A stretch of DNA of 64,000 nucleotides, from the NCBI GenBank assembly GCA_025558095.1, contig JAIVFI010000015.1:310001-374000 (forward strand). The letters run 5' to 3'. The DNA comes from Hyaloraphidium curvatum SAG 235-1. Taxonomy: Eukaryota; Fungi; Monoblepharomycota. Shown one piece after another: positions 2,428 through 20,201 of the stretch. How positions within the stretch are numbered: position 1 is the stretch's first letter; the number at the start of each line of letters is the position of its first letter. The notes under the pieces are model-generated. The model was given only the letters and a program-made list of their open reading frames with translations, was not told the DNA's origin and did not search any database. The position numbers were made by a program, and so were the translations under genes.

Positions 2428-3119
2428 ATGGACGCGCTGAAGTCTGTTGGCAGCAAGCTGTACCAGCTCCTCGACCGGGCCGCCGGCGACCCCACGCCTG
2501 CCGCCCGAAAGGTTCGGGCTCGCCCGCGAGATCAAACAGAGCGCCATTCACGCAAGCCTTCAGCGCAACTTGCAGTTCATCGCCTGGTTAGCCGTGATGC
2601 TGGATTCGAAGTTCGTGCTTCCGTTCGCGATCCCAATCCTCGGGAAGCACAGGTTCGGGCTTCAGCCCATGCTCGACCTCGGTCAGTCCCCAGATCCCCG
2701 GGAAGAGATGCGAACGGTCGCTAACGACGCTCGCAGTGCCCTATGGAGGGGCGACTCTCTGCGCTCTGGTTTCGGCGTATTTGATTTACCTCTCATTGAA
2801 GTTTGACTTGCCCACTACGACTCTCGTGCGGATGGCGATATGGACGACTATTTCTCTCTCCGCGAGCTACATTCCGGTACGATTTTCCTCGTTTCTGTTC
2901 CTGATCGCCTTACACGCTTCGCCTCGGCAGTTCCTCGGCTGGATTTTGGGTACCCTATTTGACACGGTCGCAAAGCCCAACATTGCGAACCTCCGGCTTC
3001 TCAGCGACCACCTGAGCAAGGAAGACAAGCAAGTCGTTTACCAGGCCGAGGTCGAGCACGCGGGAGAGACCGTAGCCACTGCTACGCGTTCCGCCCCGCC
3101 GCCGCCGCCGCCGCGATGA
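2428..3119 (+). CDS. DUF4112-family small membrane protein, multi-exon
   Basis: Joined exons read IAWLAVMLDSKF..RFGLQPMLDL.VPYGG..LVSAYLIYLSLKFDLP...RM...FLGWILGTLFD..KPNIANLRLL, matching the DUF4112 pattern. Confidence 0.7.
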
Positions 3120-3292
3120 ATTGGACTTGATCGCATCCTGCTGGACTGTCATCTGTCATTGCGTGTAAGACCATCTCTTGGAAATGGAATACTGTTCGTC
3201 ATTGGGACCAGTTGTTGGACCAGTCCGCATCATTCGCCCAAACCCACGATCCATCCGGACACCGTGTCGAGCCCCACATGGAGTCTGCCATC

Positions 3293-5859
3293 CTAGACCC
3301 ACACCTCCTCCGGCGTCCGCTGGCAGAGCCACAGCTTCACCTCGGGCGCCGCCAGCACCGCCGCATGCAGCGTCTGCCCTTCCATCACCTCCCCGCGCCC
3401 CACCGGCGACTCCAGCTCCAGGTAGAACTCGGCGTTCGGATCCCGCTCCATGAGCTTCCGCGCCACCTTCTCCCGGACCTCGGCCACGGTCGTGTTCGGG
3501 GGGAGGAAGTACCGCCGCGGTGCGGGGCTCTCGGCCTCGCGCAGGGGGGCGCTAGAGAGCTTGACGCTGGGGGAGAGGTGCACGCTGACGAACACCAGGG
3601 GCGGGCCCTCGGATGCCGCGCGGAGGGTGGGGACGGGGGTGTAAGCGGCCGAGGGCCCGTCCTCGGCCTTGACACCCACGCGGGGGGAGTTTGGCGGCTC
3701 CGCGTTGGCCGGGCTCTGCTGTACGTCCGGGGTGTGCGGTTCGATTCGGTTCGGAGCGGGTGCCGTCGCCGCGAGGGAGGGCAACGGCGCGGGGTTGGGG
3801 CTGGAAAATCCGGAGGCGGCGGGCAGCGTCCCCCCGGGCGGCTTCTTCGGCGGCCGGCCCCGCCTGTTGGGAGGCGGCACGCCGTCCACGAGGGACGCGG
3901 ACGGCGGGCCCTTTGCCGGACCACCGGCGGCCTCGGCAGCCTTCTTTGGCCTCGGGCCGCGCTTCTTCGGGGCCGGTTCCCCCTGATCCTCCTGCTTGGG
4001 CGGGTGGGGCGCCGGCGGCGGCAGCAGGGGCTTTGCCGGTTGCCCTGCCGGCGGTAGCAGCGCCTTCGCCGGATGCGGCGCCGGCGGGAGCAGCGGCTCG
4101 GTCGGTTGCGCCGCGGGCGGTTCCCGAACCGCCTCCATCCTTTGGTCGACGGGCTCCTCGGCCGGCGGCGCCGGTTCTGCCTCCGCCATCGCATGATCCC
4201 CGTGCACCTCCGCAGCTGCGGGTGCCGATCCGACCGCGGGCGCCGCATCCTGTTCCGCGGCGGCCGCCGAGCCCGTGTGGAGCGCCGCCCCGGAATCCAC
4301 CTCGGTTTCCGACACGCCGTTCACGGGGGTCTGGCTCCTGATCCGTGGCGCCCGCGAGCGGCGCCTCGGCGCTTCCGCGCTGCCAAACCCGGGACGTCAG
4401 TTCCGATCGAGGGTGAGCAGGAGCGTGGAACCAACCCCTCCTCGCCGGCGGCGTCCGCCTTCCTCTTGCGCTTCTGCGGCGCCGTCGCCGCTGCCGACGC
4501 CGGCGCGGCCTCCGCCGCGGGCCCCTCGGTCCCGGGCCCCTTGGCCAGGGCATCCTTGACGAACTTGCTCTGCTTCCTGTACCACTCCGCGTCGGGGCGC
4601 AGCGCCGTGTAGCCTTCCTCGACCTTGCTGGAGAGGTACTGGTAGAGCTCCGAATACAGCTGCTGGGCGCGTCAGCAGGGGATCACGGGGGGGCTCGTGG
4701 GGGAGGTCCCACCTCGCTGACGTCGAAGCCGCACACGCTGTGGAGCTTTGCCAGGCACACCGGGCAGAGGTGAAGTGGGACCTGGTCGTCCTGCTCGGGG
4801 CAGCGATTGAGGGCGCAGTAGTAGGCCGGGCTGTCGAGTCCGTTAGCGGGGAGCAAATCATCATCAAACGCGTCGCACGCACCACTGCGGAGGGCAGACA
4901 CGTCAGTCTCCGGATAACAATCAAGATCGAGCAAGCAACCCACTTCGTCCATGACCAGCGTCTGGCAGATGTTCCAGACGACGAGCTTGCACACGCGGCG
5001 GAACATGGACCCGTCCGGGTCCTTGGGGTCGCCCAGGCGCGCGCTCGATATCGCGCACAGGTTGCGGTGCACCTTTTTCGTCCCGCTCTCGGTCTCTGCC
5101 TCGAGGTCCGAGAAGCACCACGACGACGAGAGGTAGGCCCAGGCCACGTCCGCGCCGCGGCCCTCGTCCGCGTCCTGCCGCGCGTTCTCCTCGCCCACGG
5201 CGGTGGTCCCCGACACCTCGATGTTTGTCACGCCGATGATTGTCTTTGCGCGCGACGGGATCCACGGGCAGCGGTCCAGGCCGTCGAGCAGCGCGTCCAT
5301 GTCGTGCTCGTTGCGGGCCCACTGCACCTCGTTGTGCTTTGCCAGCAGCGCGATCGGCATGCCGCGGAAGAAGAGCACTGCAAAGTCCTTGAGGTCTGTG
5401 TGGGGGCGGCGCGTGAGCAATGTGAGGGCAGGGGAGGCGTCGGCGGGGAGCCCACCGCTCAGCAGCGTGTCCGGCACGGGGGTCTTGGGGTCCTCCCAGT
5501 TCTGCATCGGCAGCAGCAGCACGATGAAGTCGTCCATGTTCTGCGGCATGCGGCCTGCGGCGACCTCCGCGGCCCGCTTGCGCGCGTACTGCGCCATCGT
5601 CTGCAGCGCGGGCTCGCCGTCGCCCTCCTCGGGCTCCTCTGCCGCGGCCTGCTCGTCGGTCAGCACGCGCCACCGCGCGGCGCGGCGGCGGAACAGCGGC
5701 GACCGCAGCGCCGCGGCGACGGCACCGTCGGGCGACGCGCCGGCTGCACATTGTGGGGGGCGGGATCAAGGCCGGGAGGGTCAGCACACGTCAGCGCGCG
5801 CAGCCGCCGCGCCCACCGAGGACAGCATCGAGCGATACAGCGGGCGCGCCGGCCGGCAT
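3293..5859 (-). CDS. Inactive archaemetzincin (peptidase M54)-like protein with AT-hook and C-terminal beta-grasp-like domain (paralogue 1)
   Basis: Spliced product has ISSARL..RRVCKLVVWNICQTLVMDECPAYYCALN..LCPVCLAKL..GFDV..EWYR (M54 layout with HExxH replaced), then a Pro/Ala-rich linker with RRGRPPKK and a ~100-aa globular C-terminus. ATG at 5859 inferred. Confidence 0.7.
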
Positions 5860-5959: not shown

Positions 5960-7288
5960 ATGTCGCAGCCGCGGCGCAGCAAGCGGCGGCGCGTCGCAGA
6001 GGACGACGAGGTCGCAGAGGCACTCGAGTCGTCGCCCCCAGCGCCCGAGGCTGCGGAGCTCGCCGCCGACGGGGACTCCCAGCCCCAAGGTAGGTCCTTT
6101 CCGCTTCTTGCGCGAATTCCACGCGACCCGGAGCCCTGACCCCGCGATCGCCCCGCAGAGGACGCGCCCGCTGCCGAGGAGGACGATTCCGGATGGGCGC
6201 CCGCGGACGACCCATCGTTCCCCCTGGACCCCGTGTCGCACTCCTTCTCCTACTACTCGGACGTTCCCCCGCCCTGCCGCACCGAGGAGGTCACCCTGGG
6301 CGTCGACGAGGCCGGCAGGGGACCCGTGCTGGGGCCGATGGTCTACGCCTGCGCGTACATGCCGTCGTCGCGCAAGGAGGACCTCAAGGGCATCGGGTTC
6401 GCGGACTCGAAGACGCTCACGGACCCGGAGCGCGTCGCGCTCTTCAAGGAGCTGCGGGAAAAGAATGGCGACTGGATCGGCTGGGCCAACACCGTGTGCA
6501 GCCCGAAGGACATCTCAAACGCCATGCTGCAGAGGTATGCCTGACGCCTCTTTGACGCCCAATTCGCTCAAACTGGATCTCACGACCCAATCAGGTCCAA
6601 GTACAACCTGAACGCCCTTGCGCATGACACGACGATCGCCCTCATCCGCGGCGTGATCGATCGGGGTGTGCGCGTCTCCGAGGTGCGCCCGAGCCCGATC
6701 GATTCCGCGCCTTCGCCCACCAACCCCGTCACCCCAGGTCTTCATCGACACCGTCGGACCCCCAGACACATACCAGCAGAAACTCTCGCGCATCTTCCCC
6801 GGCATCTCCATCACCGTCTCCAAGAAGGCCGACTCGCTTTACCCCGTCGTGAGCGCGGCCTCCATCTGCGCCAAGGTGCCCCGCGACCGCATCCTCGCGC
6901 GCTGGTCGTTCGCCGAACCGGGTCTCGACGCGGTGGCTTCGCGCAAGTTCGGGAGCGGGTACCCGGGGGATCCCAACACGGTCGCATGGCTGGCGAGGCA
7001 CATGGACCCCGTGTTTGGGTACCCGATCCTGCTGCGGTTCAGCTGGAGCACGTGCGACAGGCTGCTGGAGGAAAAGGCGATCAACGTGGTGTGGTGCGTT
7101 GCGCGACGCCTGTTTGGCACCGTATTGGGGCTGACCGTTCCGCTAGGCCCGACTACGAAAACGCCGAAGAAGGAATCCCGTCCATCACGCAGTTCTTCCA
7201 GCCCGGAGCGGCAAAGGACAAGGTCGCAGAGCACCCCAAGTATTTCAAGGACATGAAGCTGAAGCGGGTCGAGAACCTGTTTGGCTAG
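5960..7288 (+). CDS. RNH201: Ribonuclease H2 catalytic subunit A
   Basis: LGVDEAGRGPVLGPMVY, GFADSKTL, VFIDTVG, KKADSLYPVVSAASICAKV, FGSGYPGDP, FGYPILLRFSWST. Confidence 0.95.
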
Positions 7289-7379
7289 CGGATGCTTAAC
7301 GGAAACGTCGCTGCTTATTGCGCGAGGAAGCCCATGTATTCGCGATCGTCGATACCACGCATACCAGGAACGGCTGTTG

Positions 7380-9232: not shown

Positions 9233-11665
9233 TCAATCCGTTTCCTCCCGCGACTCGCAGCAAATGAAGAGCGTCTTTGCCCCCGCGGGCAGCTCGTCGA
9301 TCACTTCGCCGATGGTGTCCCTCCCCTCGAATCGGAACCCCTCGTGCGCGTCGGCGACGATCGGATCCGCCGTGGAAAGGAAGAATCGCCTGTCCGGGAA
9401 GCCCTTGACGAGCCGCGGGCACACCCTCTCTAGGAATGCATCACACGATTCCTCCGAGTCCCGAGACAGGCGCATGGTCGACGTTCTGGCAGCCGCTGCG
9501 CTCTTGAGCAGCGCCTGGCACGCCACGGAAAACTTGATTCCGACCCTTTCGACGTCGGGCACTCCAGACGGCGGTGAAAGAGCCGCAATTTGCTCACAAG
9601 CAGCGTCCGGCGCGGGATCGGGCGCGGCGGGCGCCACGGGTGGCGCCGTGCCACCCTTCTCCACCGTCTCGACACTCTGATCATCCGCGGCCTGTTCGAC
9701 CTCTGGCTCGGATCGCTTGCGGAACGAAACGAGGCTGGACAGGAAGCTGCCAAACGCAGAGCCGACCTGGCGAAGGAATCCAGGGCGAGCTACCGGTCGC
9801 GCGGGATCCGGGTTGTCTCGTGGGCTCGGGTCCTGCACAGACGACACAGAGGAAGGCGGGAACGTAAAGCTGCTCTCGTTTCGGACTCCGTTCACGTCCG
9901 GTTCCGCCGCAGCCTCAGCAAACTGGCCTGCGTGCGCATCAGGTTCGACGTTGGAGCTGTCTGCCGGATCCATGTGATCCTCCAGTGTGGTTGTCTCCGG
10001 CACAGCCGCCGGTGAAGCCCTCCGCGGGCGCCGCGTGGGGGTGCGCTGCACGTAGTCCTCGTCGTCTTCGTTGTCCGAGTCGGAACTTGAGCGGTTGGAT
10101 ACGGAAGGAACGCGACCGATTCGCTGCATCCCTGTGACCTCGCCCTCGGGTGGTGCGTCATTTGCACTTGCACTTGGAGCTTCCGGAGAAGTCTGGCGCA
10201 GCGCCAAGCGGGGGAACTTGGAAGCCGAACCCCCGTTTCGTCCCTTTCGCCGAAGGCGCACCGACCAGTCTTCGTCGCTTCTGAAGGAAAAATGAGGCCG
10301 CGAATTCAAATTTCAACCGCCGCGCAAGCTCACTCTTCGCACTCGAGCTCCACCCGCTGCGAACGAGCACCCCGCTTTCTCCTGCCCAAGTTCTCCATCA
10401 GATGCTTGAGTTCGGCTGCGCTCTGCTTTTCCCGAATGTAGCCGGCGCTGGCCCTGTACCACTCGAGATCTCCCGCAAAAGCCGACAAGCCGCGATCCAC
10501 GAGATCCTGAATGTAGCTCTCGATCCCTTCGAACCACTTGAGACAATCCTCGGGCCGAGAGAAACAGCACGCCGCCAACTTCAGCAGGCAAATCGGGCAT
10601 GGGAAGAGAACGCCGTCTGATTTGGAATCGTTGTGCTCGGGTCTGTTCTTGATGCACGCAAAGGTCACGCATTCCTCGATGGCGAACTGGTGCATGATGA
10701 GCGCGACCGTGCTTCTCAGCGTCCGGCGCAGCACGGCCCCCGTAGCATCGCCGTCGAGATCACCGAATGGTGCGGTGGAAATCATACCGAGGTAACGCTT
10801 GTTGCAGCCGTTCACGGGGAAGGATTTGGCGCACGTCGTGTCGGTCCAACTGGACGTGAAGTAGGAGAAATCGATCCGCGGCTCGCCTTCCTCCGAATCG
10901 TCCAGCGCATCCCCCGATATGAGAGACTTAGTGAAGACGATGACGCTCCAGACGTGCGGGGGGAAGGTGTCCGAGACGGCGTCCAAGCCGTCGAAAAGGT
11001 CGTCCGCTTCCCATTCCGTCAGCGGGATCTGGGTCGGTGGTCTCCCCAGCGACAACACTTTCTTCGGCCGAATGATTTCGAACTCGTCCTTCGGAACGAA
11101 AGGGACGTTCGGGAACCAGCGCTGACAGAAGTGCATTACTTCCTGGACGAATTCTTGCGGCGGCGTGCCGCACTACCGAAGAAGAGTTGAGGCACAACTC
11201 GTGCTGACGAAAACAGCAACGACACACCTCGCAAACGGTGAACTCGATGACACGGTCCTTGACCGCGCGAGGCACCCGCTGGTCCAGTATCCGTTCCTCG
11301 AGCACCCGCTCGTGCTCCTCGCAAGTTTGGTTAACGATTCTCTTCTGCGGCCGTTGGACGGGGGCTTGAGCGGGAGACGGTTCTGGTGTCGGCTTGGGAG
11401 AGCTTTCAGAGGCTTCACTGGCTCGGCCGACGAAATGGCAGCTTACCAAGCTGGAGCCTGCTGCACGGGGGCCGAATGGGGCGGCGGAGGTGGGGGTCGA
11501 CGGCGATGTTGTAGAAGTAGGCGATGGAAGCTGGGAGGCTGCTCCGCGGCACAAGATTGCAGGTATGCAAAGTAGAACCGGGGGAGGCTCGTCACCTTGG
11601 CCGCGTCCGACCCTCCGGGCCGTCAACTTCTTGCGGATCGGCTGAATGGTCGTGTAAAACGGCAT
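9233..11665 (-). CDS. Inactive archaemetzincin (peptidase M54)-like protein with C-terminal beta-grasp-like domain (paralogue 2)
   Basis: Exons joined by introns at ~11173-11227 and ~10281-10333 give NQTCEEH..GMISTAPF..LRRTLRSTVALIMHQFAIEECVTFACIKN..FPCPICLLKL..LEWYR, an acidic/Pro linker and a ~105-aa globular C-terminus. 5' exons uncertain. Confidence 0.65.
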
Positions 11666-18267: not shown

Positions 18268-20201
18268 ATGTCGCCGTCGGAGGCGCGAACGGCCGCGAGC
18301 CGCGAGCGCATGCTCAAGGAGATTCGCAGTTGCGTAAAGGAAGCCAGAGAAGCGGGAATAGGAGATGGAGGGGAACGGGACGCTTACACGCACCTACGCT
18401 CCTTCGTCCTCGCGACGAGGTTGTGGCCTTGGGGCTGGTCGCACGCCCTTTCTGCTTCCATGTCGGAGACCATATGCCTTCTTTGTGCATCCGAGGACCT
18501 CGATGCTGACCTGCGGCAGCTATCGGAGGAAGATGCGGGCTACCATGACGCCCGCTCGTCCTTGTTCCGGGGTACCAACGCGCTGGAAGCCCTGTGCTTG
18601 CCGGACCAAGTCTTCATCATCTGGGACCTGACCGTTCTGCTGATGGAAGACTGCGGCCAGCTAACGCCTGCGGCTTGCCGTGCGCTCGTGCGGTCGTTCG
18701 AGGCCCATACCGAACACGACCGTGCTCTCGAGGTTCTGGAGTGGATGGGACAACATCGCTGGAGGCTCGACGAATACAAGAAAGCCATCGGCTTCTACAT
18801 CATGAAGCGGCCCATGAACGTTGAGCGGGCGCGCCAGGTCGCACTCGATGTCGGAAGGACGATCATCTGCATTCAAGTCCGCGGCCAGCTGGGAATCCAA
18901 TACGTGAAGAACACCCCGGAGGTCGAAAACGCTTCAGAAGAAGACAAGGTGGACATCATGAACCATTTCCGTGCTTGCTTCCAGGAGCGAAAGTGGCTTG
19001 ACGCCGTCGGAAGCTACCTGACGCTGAGGGAGCACACGGTGCAGCACGAAAAGCCGGACTCGGGGGTTTCCGTGACCGAGGTGGACAATGCGATGCTGGA
19101 AATCTGCAAAACGTACCGCAAGCATTCGGAAGCCTGGCGCATCTACGAGGCAATGGCCGAGATCGACGCGCGGACCCTCCCGATCGTGATTGCCGTATGC
19201 CACCAGGCATTCGTCGCCTTAGGTGCCGCGCACCAAGATGGTGAAGGCAGAAATGATGGGGACAACGAGAAAGCTGGGGTGGTCTGGATGAGACGCGCAC
19301 GGCAGGTTTACGAGCGGTACCTTTCGGATGCCAGGGTGCAGTCGTACACGAACCTCCGTTTCGTCCTCCACGAGCTCATGTGGATCATGAGCTACGATTC
19401 GGAAGCTTCGGATGCCAGTCTAGTGAAGCTTTCGGAGCTGGACACGACGCTGGCGTCGTTCACGGACATGCCCATCGGGGATGACTACCTCGCGAAGCCA
19501 GCCATTCGCATCTGCTGGAATGCCACGGGGGCTCGGTGCGAAACCGAAGCTGACGAAATCGACATCATTACTGGCAGGATCCCGGAGGTCAACATCAAGG
19601 CTGCCGAGCTGGCCTTCCGCATCTACCAGCGCATCCGAGAACGCACGGTGCACGGCAAGTACAGGCGGATTCGCAGGTGCGACAGCGATATCTACGTCAT
19701 GATGCTTGAGCTATGCACTCTGGCGGCCGATCGAGGGAAGGTGGCTTACATGTGTCAGGACGCCTTGGACGCCAAAGTCGATCTAGAGCAGGACCTGGTC
19801 GCCGTGATCCAACGGGTACGGAACTTGCTGGTTCTTACCTCTGTGCTCTGACGTATTCCTCTGCATCTTCTACAGGCCCACGACTACCTGGTGAGCTCAC
19901 ACTGCCTTCGCGCACGAAACGGATCTGACGAGCCCTTTGACAGATCTGCGACGATGAATGCCCGATGTCGCAGGGATTCAAGCCCGTTTCTGCAGCAGCG
20001 TCGCAAAATCTCGGCGCATCTCGATCCCAAGATCTGTCTCGCGGAAGCCACAACGACGACCGTACGCGGCAGCTGATCAAGCACCTGGTGCGGAAGTGCC
20101 AGTCGACTCTGAACGCAATGACGGAAGCGGAGGTGGCGGCAAAGTCGAGTGCGTCGCAACCGAAGCGAATTCGATGGAGCCTGCGGGTCAAAAGCCAATG
20201 A
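18268..20201 (+). CDS. Helical-repeat (PPR-like) protein
   Basis: Long ORF plus two short 3' exons; PPR-like units ACRALVRSFEAHTEHDRALEVLEWM, VDNAMLEICKTYRKHSEAWRIYEAM, DSDIYVMMLELC. Start uncertain. Confidence 0.5.

What the first reader, a model, noticed from the sequence alone, without database searches (positions are those of the whole stretch)
4831..4943. A 2-nt micro-exon supplies two bases of a conserved zinc-binding Cys codon
Seen on the minus strand: ATG GAC GAA | GTGGGT...ACTGAC...CCGCAG (59 nt, 4943-4885) | TG (4884-4883) | GTGCGT...GCTAAC...GACAG (52 nt, 4882-4831) | C CCG GCC TAC TAC TGC. Splicing gives MDE-C-PAYY-C, the same C-x4-C spacing as paralogue 2 (IEE-C-VTFA-C). Skipping the micro-exon frameshifts. 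Retaining both introns stays in frame with a 37-aa insert, so gene predictors would miss it. Two-nucleotide exons are very rare and could act as a splicing switch (inference).
Basis: seen in the sequence. Interest (0 to 1): 0.75.

Follow-up and report, generated by a model that had tools for sequence, protein, structure and literature searches.

The report
Two-base exon in fungal pseudo-protease gene
A fungal gene contains a real two-base exon, seen spliced into an assembled transcript, that completes a cysteine codon likely needed for a structural zinc site; such tiny exons are already known in fungi, but this one is missed by the public gene model and likely arose when a new intron appeared two bases from an older one.

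Summary
Confirmed. A spliced contig of run X1 carries exactly the predicted GAA-TG-CCCG junction. Of 62 two-intron solutions, only the 2-nt exon 4884-4883 has GT..AG at both introns; no single intron fits. Both introns (59, 52 nt) are typical for this genome (median 55). The matching NCBI protein (Hyaloraphidium curvatum, KAI9022506.1) is frameshifted at this codon, as a non-canonical 112-nt intron would give. The host is an archaemetzincin-fold protein that keeps the four zinc-finger cysteines but has lost all catalytic His/Glu residues: a likely pseudo-protease. Added here: 4 of 4 close homologues that reach this codon read Trp instead of Cys and then derail, the read-through signature of the downstream intron alone. 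The downstream intron is therefore likely old and the upstream one likely gained; this rests on proteins only, and the tree does not fix direction. No skipping or retention isoform was seen, so the 'switch' is unsupported (contigs could hide one). Two-base exons are known in fungi (57 in Coprinopsis), and this scan noted another 2-nt fungal exon on other DNA. New member of a known kind.

The parts
4883..4884 (-). 2-nt exon TG, first two bases of the Cys262 codon
   Evidence: spliced contig
4885..4943 (-). 59-nt phase-0 GT..AG intron, branch-like ACTGAC 23 nt from its 3' end; likely the younger intron
   Evidence: absent by read-through in 4 of 4 homologues
4831..4882 (-). 52-nt phase-2 GT..AG intron, branch-like GCTAAC 17 nt from its 3' end; position likely shared with homologues
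   Evidence: Trp read-through in P0005-P0008
5817..5859 (-). exon 1 (start codon at 5859)
   Evidence: residues 1-261 identical to NCBI protein P0003; not covered by X1
5456..5743 (-). exon 2
   Evidence: X1 covers 5659-5456
4944..5395 (-). exon 3, ends at the degenerate active-site helix (WNICQTLVMDE in place of HExxHxxGxxH)
4713..4830 (-). exon 5: last base of the Cys codon, the other three motif cysteines and one extra Cys
4436..4659 (-). exon 6, helical end of the M54-like domain and a basic NLS-like stretch (PQKRKRK)
   Evidence: acceptor seen; donor at 4435 predicted only
4380..4435 (-). candidate 56-nt intron; needed for the 737-aa product, not seen spliced
   Evidence: typical splice scores; X1 record 1 runs through it unspliced
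3293..4379 (-). predicted last exon: Pro/Ala-rich region, two AT-hook-like motifs, about 100-aa C-terminal domain (ubiquitin-fold lead only)
   Evidence: Atlas 0.87, under the 0.9 lead limit; PF25565 E 0.083
10334..11172 (-). paralogue 2 (NCBI P0004), exon with the same motif and no intron at either position

Best explanation
TG at 4884-4883 is a true two-base exon that is spliced into the mRNA and completes the first cysteine of a predicted Cys4 structural zinc site in a likely catalytically dead archaemetzincin-fold protein; it is likely constitutive, with its two short introns likely removed one after the other, and it likely arose when the 59-nt intron was gained two bases upstream of an older intron. 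Shown: the junction, the splice signals, the motif, the loss of the catalytic residues, the frameshifted public model. Inferred: zinc binding (from solved relatives), intron-by-intron removal (each intron has its own donor, branch-like site and acceptor, and two spliceosomes cannot sit two bases apart), constitutive use (about 0.8), and gain rather than loss of the upstream intron (about 0.65).
For: Junction in X1. Introns of 59 and 52 nt against a median of 55 for 20 RNA-supported introns; donor scores 7.4 and 6.5 against a leave-one-out range of 1.9-7.0, acceptor scores 6.6 and 4.8 against -1.4 to 9.0: strong, not weak, sites. Skipping, or keeping one intron, removes the whole Cys motif. Fold: the paralogue model matches three archaemetzincins first, Z 9.9, 9.4, 9.0, rmsd 2.9-3.4 A over 137-152 residues; Atlas 0.94 to Peptidase_M54 clusters; the family profile puts the micro-exon Cys on the first Cys4 cysteine of 3ZVS/4AXQ, E 0.027. 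P0005-P0008 read M-A-[ED]-W then L-V, W-V, stop or L-V, which fits TG followed by GTT[AG]GT, GTGGGT or GT[AA/AG/GA] donors; keeping the window's own 52-nt intron gives W-C-V in the same way. One-after-another removal is the model proposed for the 1-nt Arabidopsis exon (PMC4674806, passage).
Against: One run, contigs only: no read counts, so minor isoforms are invisible. No DNA of the homologues was obtained (none of 44 and none of 595 candidate stretches confirmed), so their intron positions come from protein read-through, and for P0005 and P0008 the Leu codon also allows non-GT readings. The tree leaves the five close rows unresolved and does not reject the four homologues as one clade (p-AU 0.264), where one loss equals one gain. 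The two introns are no more alike than other pairs (48 of 153 score as high), so no gain mechanism is visible. The fold was modelled on the paralogue (29% identity over 208 residues; mean pLDDT 62.5, motif loop under 50), Foldseek found nothing and Pfam PF07998 was not hit.
Confidence: 0.78

Rival explanations
1. The exon is real but regulated: retention of both introns (in frame, +37 residues, Cys to Ser) or skipping is used to switch the Cys4 site off.
For: Double retention is in frame and stop-free. Introns beside plant micro-exons are retained or delayed more often than others (PMC8831610, passages). A fifth Cys lies five residues after the second and might keep some metal binding.
Against: Only inclusion is seen. 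In-frame stop-free retention is expected about 1 time in 9 by chance, and the 60-nt intron 5455-5396 has the same property. Both splice-site pairs score as ordinary to strong. The paralogue has no intron here, and homologues seem to lack the upstream one.
Confidence: 0.12
2. The two-intron layout is ancestral; the four homologues descend from a lineage that lost the upstream intron, and the paralogue lost both.
For: The AU test does not reject the four homologues as a clade apart from the window gene (p 0.264). The paralogue shows that this position can be intron-free.
Against: The nearest relative P0006 (51% identity) lacks the upstream intron by read-through, and what is likely its upstream fragment (P0011/P0013; P0013 and P0006 have the same longest-contig length) seems to share another intron position with the window gene that P0005, P0007 and P0008 lack (inference). 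That would put the window gene inside the group and need several losses.
Confidence: 0.25
3. The TG in the contig is not an exon but an assembly error, an allele or RNA editing at a single 113-nt intron.
For: A single contig supports the junction, and no DNA run of the same strain was laid.
Against: Depth 99 and no other differing letter in that record; neither edge of the segment can supply TG (0 one-intron solutions); a perfect AG-TG-GT with two branch-like sites sits mid-segment (shuffle chance 0.007); the added bases restore the conserved Cys.
Confidence: 0.03

Closest known systems
1-3-nt exons of Coprinopsis cinerea (PMC12230235, passages seen)
   Same: Internal fungal exons of 1-3 nt (2 nt: 57 exons in 50 genes); leaving them out often creates a stop and breaks gene models.
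   Different: Basidiomycete; found genome-wide by long reads. Here one case in Hyaloraphidium (an early-diverging fungus, recalled), with a likely lineage-specific origin.
1-nt exon of Fusarium CYP621A (PMC12940212, first third of the text seen)
   Same: Tiny exon supplies part of a codon in a conserved motif; apparent intron about twice the median length; intronless relative as a ruler; confirmed by RNA.
   Different: One base; kept in 20 or more orthologues, whereas here no homologue found shares the two-intron layout.
1-nt exons of plant APC11 and VPS55 (PMC4674806, PMC8831610; passages)
   Same: Missed by annotation; one-after-another intron removal proposed; VPS55 shows forms with and without the exon.
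   Different: Conserved across land plants; alternative forms shown for VPS55, none shown here.
Archaemetzincins (Pfam PF07998, M54; PDB 2X7M, 3LMC, 3ZVS; PMC3427221, passages)
   Same: Predicted fold (paralogue) and the four cysteines C-x4-C...C-x2-C.
   Different: None of His, Glu, His, Gly, His or the Met-turn Met is kept; spacing 14 rather than 17; long C-terminal extension predicted.
Myxococcus CarG, partner of the AT-hook protein CarD (PMC8156234, passages)
   Same: Protease-dead archaemetzincin-like protein whose four cysteines are essential; works with AT-hook DNA binding, which the window gene may carry in the same chain.
   Different: CarG keeps its three His and binds two zinc; it is bacterial and separate from CarD. 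No sequence relation was tested: an analogy only.

Membership tests
internal micro-exon (15 nt or less) | flanked by two canonical spliceosomal introns | tested here: met
   GT..AG at both, branch-like sites, typical lengths and scores
internal micro-exon (15 nt or less) | its bases are present in spliced RNA and cannot come from neighbouring exon or intron edges | tested here: met
   0 one-intron solutions, 1 of 62 canonical two-intron solutions
alternatively spliced (switch) micro-exon | two or more isoforms in regulated proportions | tested here: inconclusive
   only inclusion in one contig set; contigs drop rare forms
recursive splicing through a zero-length exon | AG directly followed by GT, nothing kept in the mRNA | tested here: not met
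   two bases are kept; definition recalled
stwintron | an internal intron interrupts a splice signal of the external intron and must be removed first | tested here: not met
   both introns have intact signals; the 9 of 11 nested paths need pieces of 25-34 nt, shorter than all 20 reference introns (minimum 51); definition from the search listing of PMC5587772
archaemetzincin (M54) | metzincin fold closest to AmzA | tested here: met
   paralogue model: top three VIA-align rows are AmzA-type structures, Z 9.0-9.9; Atlas 0.94. Modelled on the paralogue, not on the window protein
archaemetzincin (M54) | four cysteines CX4C...CXXC | tested here: met
   present after splicing and in the paralogue
archaemetzincin (M54) | catalytic HEXXHXXGXXH | tested here: not met
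   WNICQTLVMDE in the window gene; one His left in the paralogue
archaemetzincin (M54) | Met-turn methionine (CXM) and X17 spacing | tested here: not met
   Leu and 14 residues in the window gene; Lys and 16 in the paralogue
archaemetzincin (M54) | Pfam PF07998 above its cut-off | tested here: inconclusive
   no hit for P0001-P0003 or P0004-P0008 and P0010-P0011; only distant P0009, E 0.034
archaemetzincin (M54) | zinc bound by the four cysteines | not testable with these tools
   inferred from PMC3427221

The most novel reading that the evidence does not exclude
A datable birth of a micro-exon: a new intron inserted two bases from an ancient one inside an essential zinc-ligand codon, after which in-frame retention of both introns became a regulated switch that turns off the Cys4 site of a one-chain fungal counterpart of CarG-CarD (dead archaemetzincin plus AT-hooks) acting on chromatin.
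Probability: 0.07. Interest if true: 0.65.

Novelty: new member of a known kind. Interest (0 to 1): 0.33.

Why it matters
It is a clean, RNA-supported case in which two missed bases wreck a public gene model: the correct product carries a Cys4 motif that the deposited protein lacks. It extends 1-3-nt exons to Hyaloraphidium, for which the searches here listed no such report. If the homologue reading holds, it shows a simple route to ultra-small exons (intron gain beside an existing intron, tolerated because short introns are defined one by one), testable with a few orthologous loci. The host family, archaemetzincin-fold proteins without catalytic residues, was not among the listed results and may be the more interesting lead.

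Tried and rejected
No whole genome is held, so no genome-wide count. No listed holder is on record as RNA; X1 is a guessed-RNA contig set. DNA of homologues was not found: 44 stretches, none confirmed; 595, none confirmed. Word-index protein searches returned only the window's own NCBI proteins or rows of the query alignment. Pfam gave no M54 hit for the window proteins; phmmer of the paralogue against PDB gave 0 hits; the single-sequence model was unusable (pLDDT 37); Foldseek on the better model had no match at E 0.001. Origin of the upstream intron by duplication of the downstream one or from a repeated element: rejected as unsupported (48 of 153 other intron pairs score as high; no second copy in the window). 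Trees with and without the long-branched paralogue did not resolve the close group. The 'motif intact' flag for double retention is a pattern artefact: it matched the second and an extra fifth Cys. A strict pattern scan of the window found 1 candidate 1-3-nt exon, this one, but the pattern was set after seeing the site, so it is not independent. X1 has no cover at 4449-4631 or upstream of 5659; nothing is concluded from that. Earlier-findings look-ups by place and by sequence were empty. No supplementary files were read; the Coprinopsis and plant supplements may list further 2-nt exons.

Full report
Observation. One public run, X1, holds the stretch. It is kept as contigs and only guessed to be RNA, but its record 3 removes the canonical introns 5455-5396 and 4712-4660 and joins 4831 to 4944 with one extra letter. 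Rebuilt, that joint is identical to the predicted GAA-TG-CCCG junction; 0 one-intron solutions exist and 1 of 62 two-intron solutions has canonical ends on both introns. All 11 sequential or nested paths keep the same two bases. In shuffles of the 113-nt segment AG-TG-GT falls in a usable place 0.7% of the time. The exon is real, on the evidence of one contig of depth 99.

Splicing. Of the 30 joints counted, 15 were shown; with those and the four introns resolved they gave 20 reference introns, median 55 nt, range 51-163. Both focal introns are typical, have a branch-like hexamer 17-23 nt from the end, and score as ordinary to strong sites. Each is thus a complete short intron, which fits intron definition with removal one after the other, the model proposed for the 1-nt Arabidopsis exon (PMC4674806, passage); the order is not known here. 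Skipping, or keeping only one intron, removes the whole cysteine motif; keeping both adds 37 residues and replaces the Cys by Ser. That last property is weak evidence of design: a third of shuffles are stop-free, and another intron of this gene is also in frame and stop-free. No alternative form was seen, but contigs show presence, not absence. Small exons are not exceptional in this genome: of the 4 rows with inserted letters, three resolve to exons of 2, 9 and 15 nt; the fourth, a go-back joint, was not examined.

Annotation. The best protein hit is NCBI KAI9022506.1, labelled Hyaloraphidium curvatum, 'partial'. It is identical to the window gene for residues 1-261 and then changes frame right after MDE. 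It is reproduced by a single 112-nt intron with non-canonical ends, TG..AG, GT..CA or AG..AC. So the public model did miss the exon, by a frameshift rather than by retention.

Host protein. Pfam gives no M54 hit, but the paralogue in the same window (29% identity over 208 residues) scores 0.94 to Peptidase_M54 clusters in the Atlas, its model (pLDDT 62.5) matches three archaemetzincin structures first (Z 9.9, 9.4, 9.0; Foldseek found nothing), and a profile of eight relatives aligns the motif to 3ZVS and 4AXQ at E 0.027. Archaemetzincins carry HEXXHXXGXXHCX4CXMX17CXXC, the four cysteines holding a structural zinc needed for stability (PMC3427221, passages). The spliced protein keeps the four cysteines and none of the catalytic His, Glu, Gly or Met positions: it is built like an archaemetzincin but fails membership as a protease. 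The micro-exon supplies the first of the four cysteines. If a further 56-nt intron (4435-4380) is removed the product is 737 aa with a basic NLS-like stretch, two AT-hook-like motifs and a C-terminal domain with a weak ubiquitin-fold lead; X1 record 1 runs through that intron unspliced, but it begins only 13 nt before the donor and is merged with a convergent gene, so this is open; if it is kept the product stops at 413 aa. A dead archaemetzincin working with AT-hooks recalls Myxococcus CarG-CarD (PMC8156234, passages); that is an analogy, not a tested relation.

Origin of the exon. The exhaustive search gave 8 proteins at E 0.001: the NCBI protein itself, four close homologues that reach this codon (P0005-P0008), one that ends earlier (P0011) and two distant repeat proteins with the Cys in place (P0009, P0010). 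All 4 close homologues read M-A-[ED]-W and then lose similarity or stop. Trp is what TG plus the G of a GT donor gives, the following residues fit GTNNGT or GTAA/GTAG/GTGA donors, and keeping the window's own 52-nt intron gives the same W-x-V pattern; Trp makes up 1.5% of these proteins. So they likely are gene calls on unspliced DNA with an intron at the position of the 52-nt intron and none before TG. The paralogue has neither intron. The simplest history is gain of the 59-nt intron two bases upstream of an older one. Against: their DNA could not be fetched, two rows also allow non-GT codons, and the tree leaves the group unresolved and does not reject the four as a clade (p-AU 0.264; the paralogue and the first P0009 repeat were left out of that tree, and P0011 of both). 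The two introns are not alike, and no copy of the younger one lies in the window.

Comparison and verdict. Exons of 1-3 nt are documented in fungi (Coprinopsis: 13, 57 and 27 exons of 1, 2 and 3 nt, PMC12230235, passage; Fusarium CYP621A, PMC12940212, part 1 of 3) and plants (PMC8831610, passages). Searches listed no paper on such exons in Hyaloraphidium or its class; the library lacks most subscription papers and no supplements were read. The scan earlier noted another 2-nt fungal exon on other DNA and called it ordinary; that is a lead, not support. Verdict: a real, likely constitutive micro-exon, a new member of a known kind, with modest added interest from the broken public model, the likely intron-gain origin and the dead-protease host. 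Interest 0.33.

Noticed in passing
window 11829-11821 (-): A 9-nt exon between 163- and 119-nt introns in the paralogue's transcript; it is in frame with an upstream Met that would add 24 residues to NCBI P0004.
   Followed up: partly
window 11595-11393 (-): RNA-supported joints of the paralogue give a different reading of about residues 25-52 than NCBI P0004: a second likely annotation error.
   Followed up: partly
window 19876-19890 (+): A 15-nt exon between 60- and 53-nt introns, in an open frame of a neighbouring gene.
   Followed up: partly
window 2930-4448: One X1 contig joins the spliced + strand gene (joints 257-2930) with the 3' part of the minus-strand gene, suggesting overlapping ends of convergent transcripts; it leaves the candidate intron 4435-4380 unspliced.
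   Followed up: no
window 3293-4379 (-) and 9233-10280 (-): Both paralogues continue into a long low-complexity region and an about 100-aa C-terminal domain; only the window gene has AT-hook-like motifs (KRGPRPKK, RRGRPPKK). The two C-terminal domains were not compared.
   Followed up: partly
P0009/P0012 and P0010: Proteins with three and two tandem His-less archaemetzincin-like repeats, labelled Eutreptiella gymnastica and a Phycisphaerae bacterium: catalytically dead M54-like domains seem widespread.
   Followed up: no
window 6040-7300 (+): A gene between the two paralogues, on the other strand, that looks by eye like RNase H2 catalytic subunit (DEAGRGP motif; name recalled, not searched).
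   Followed up: no
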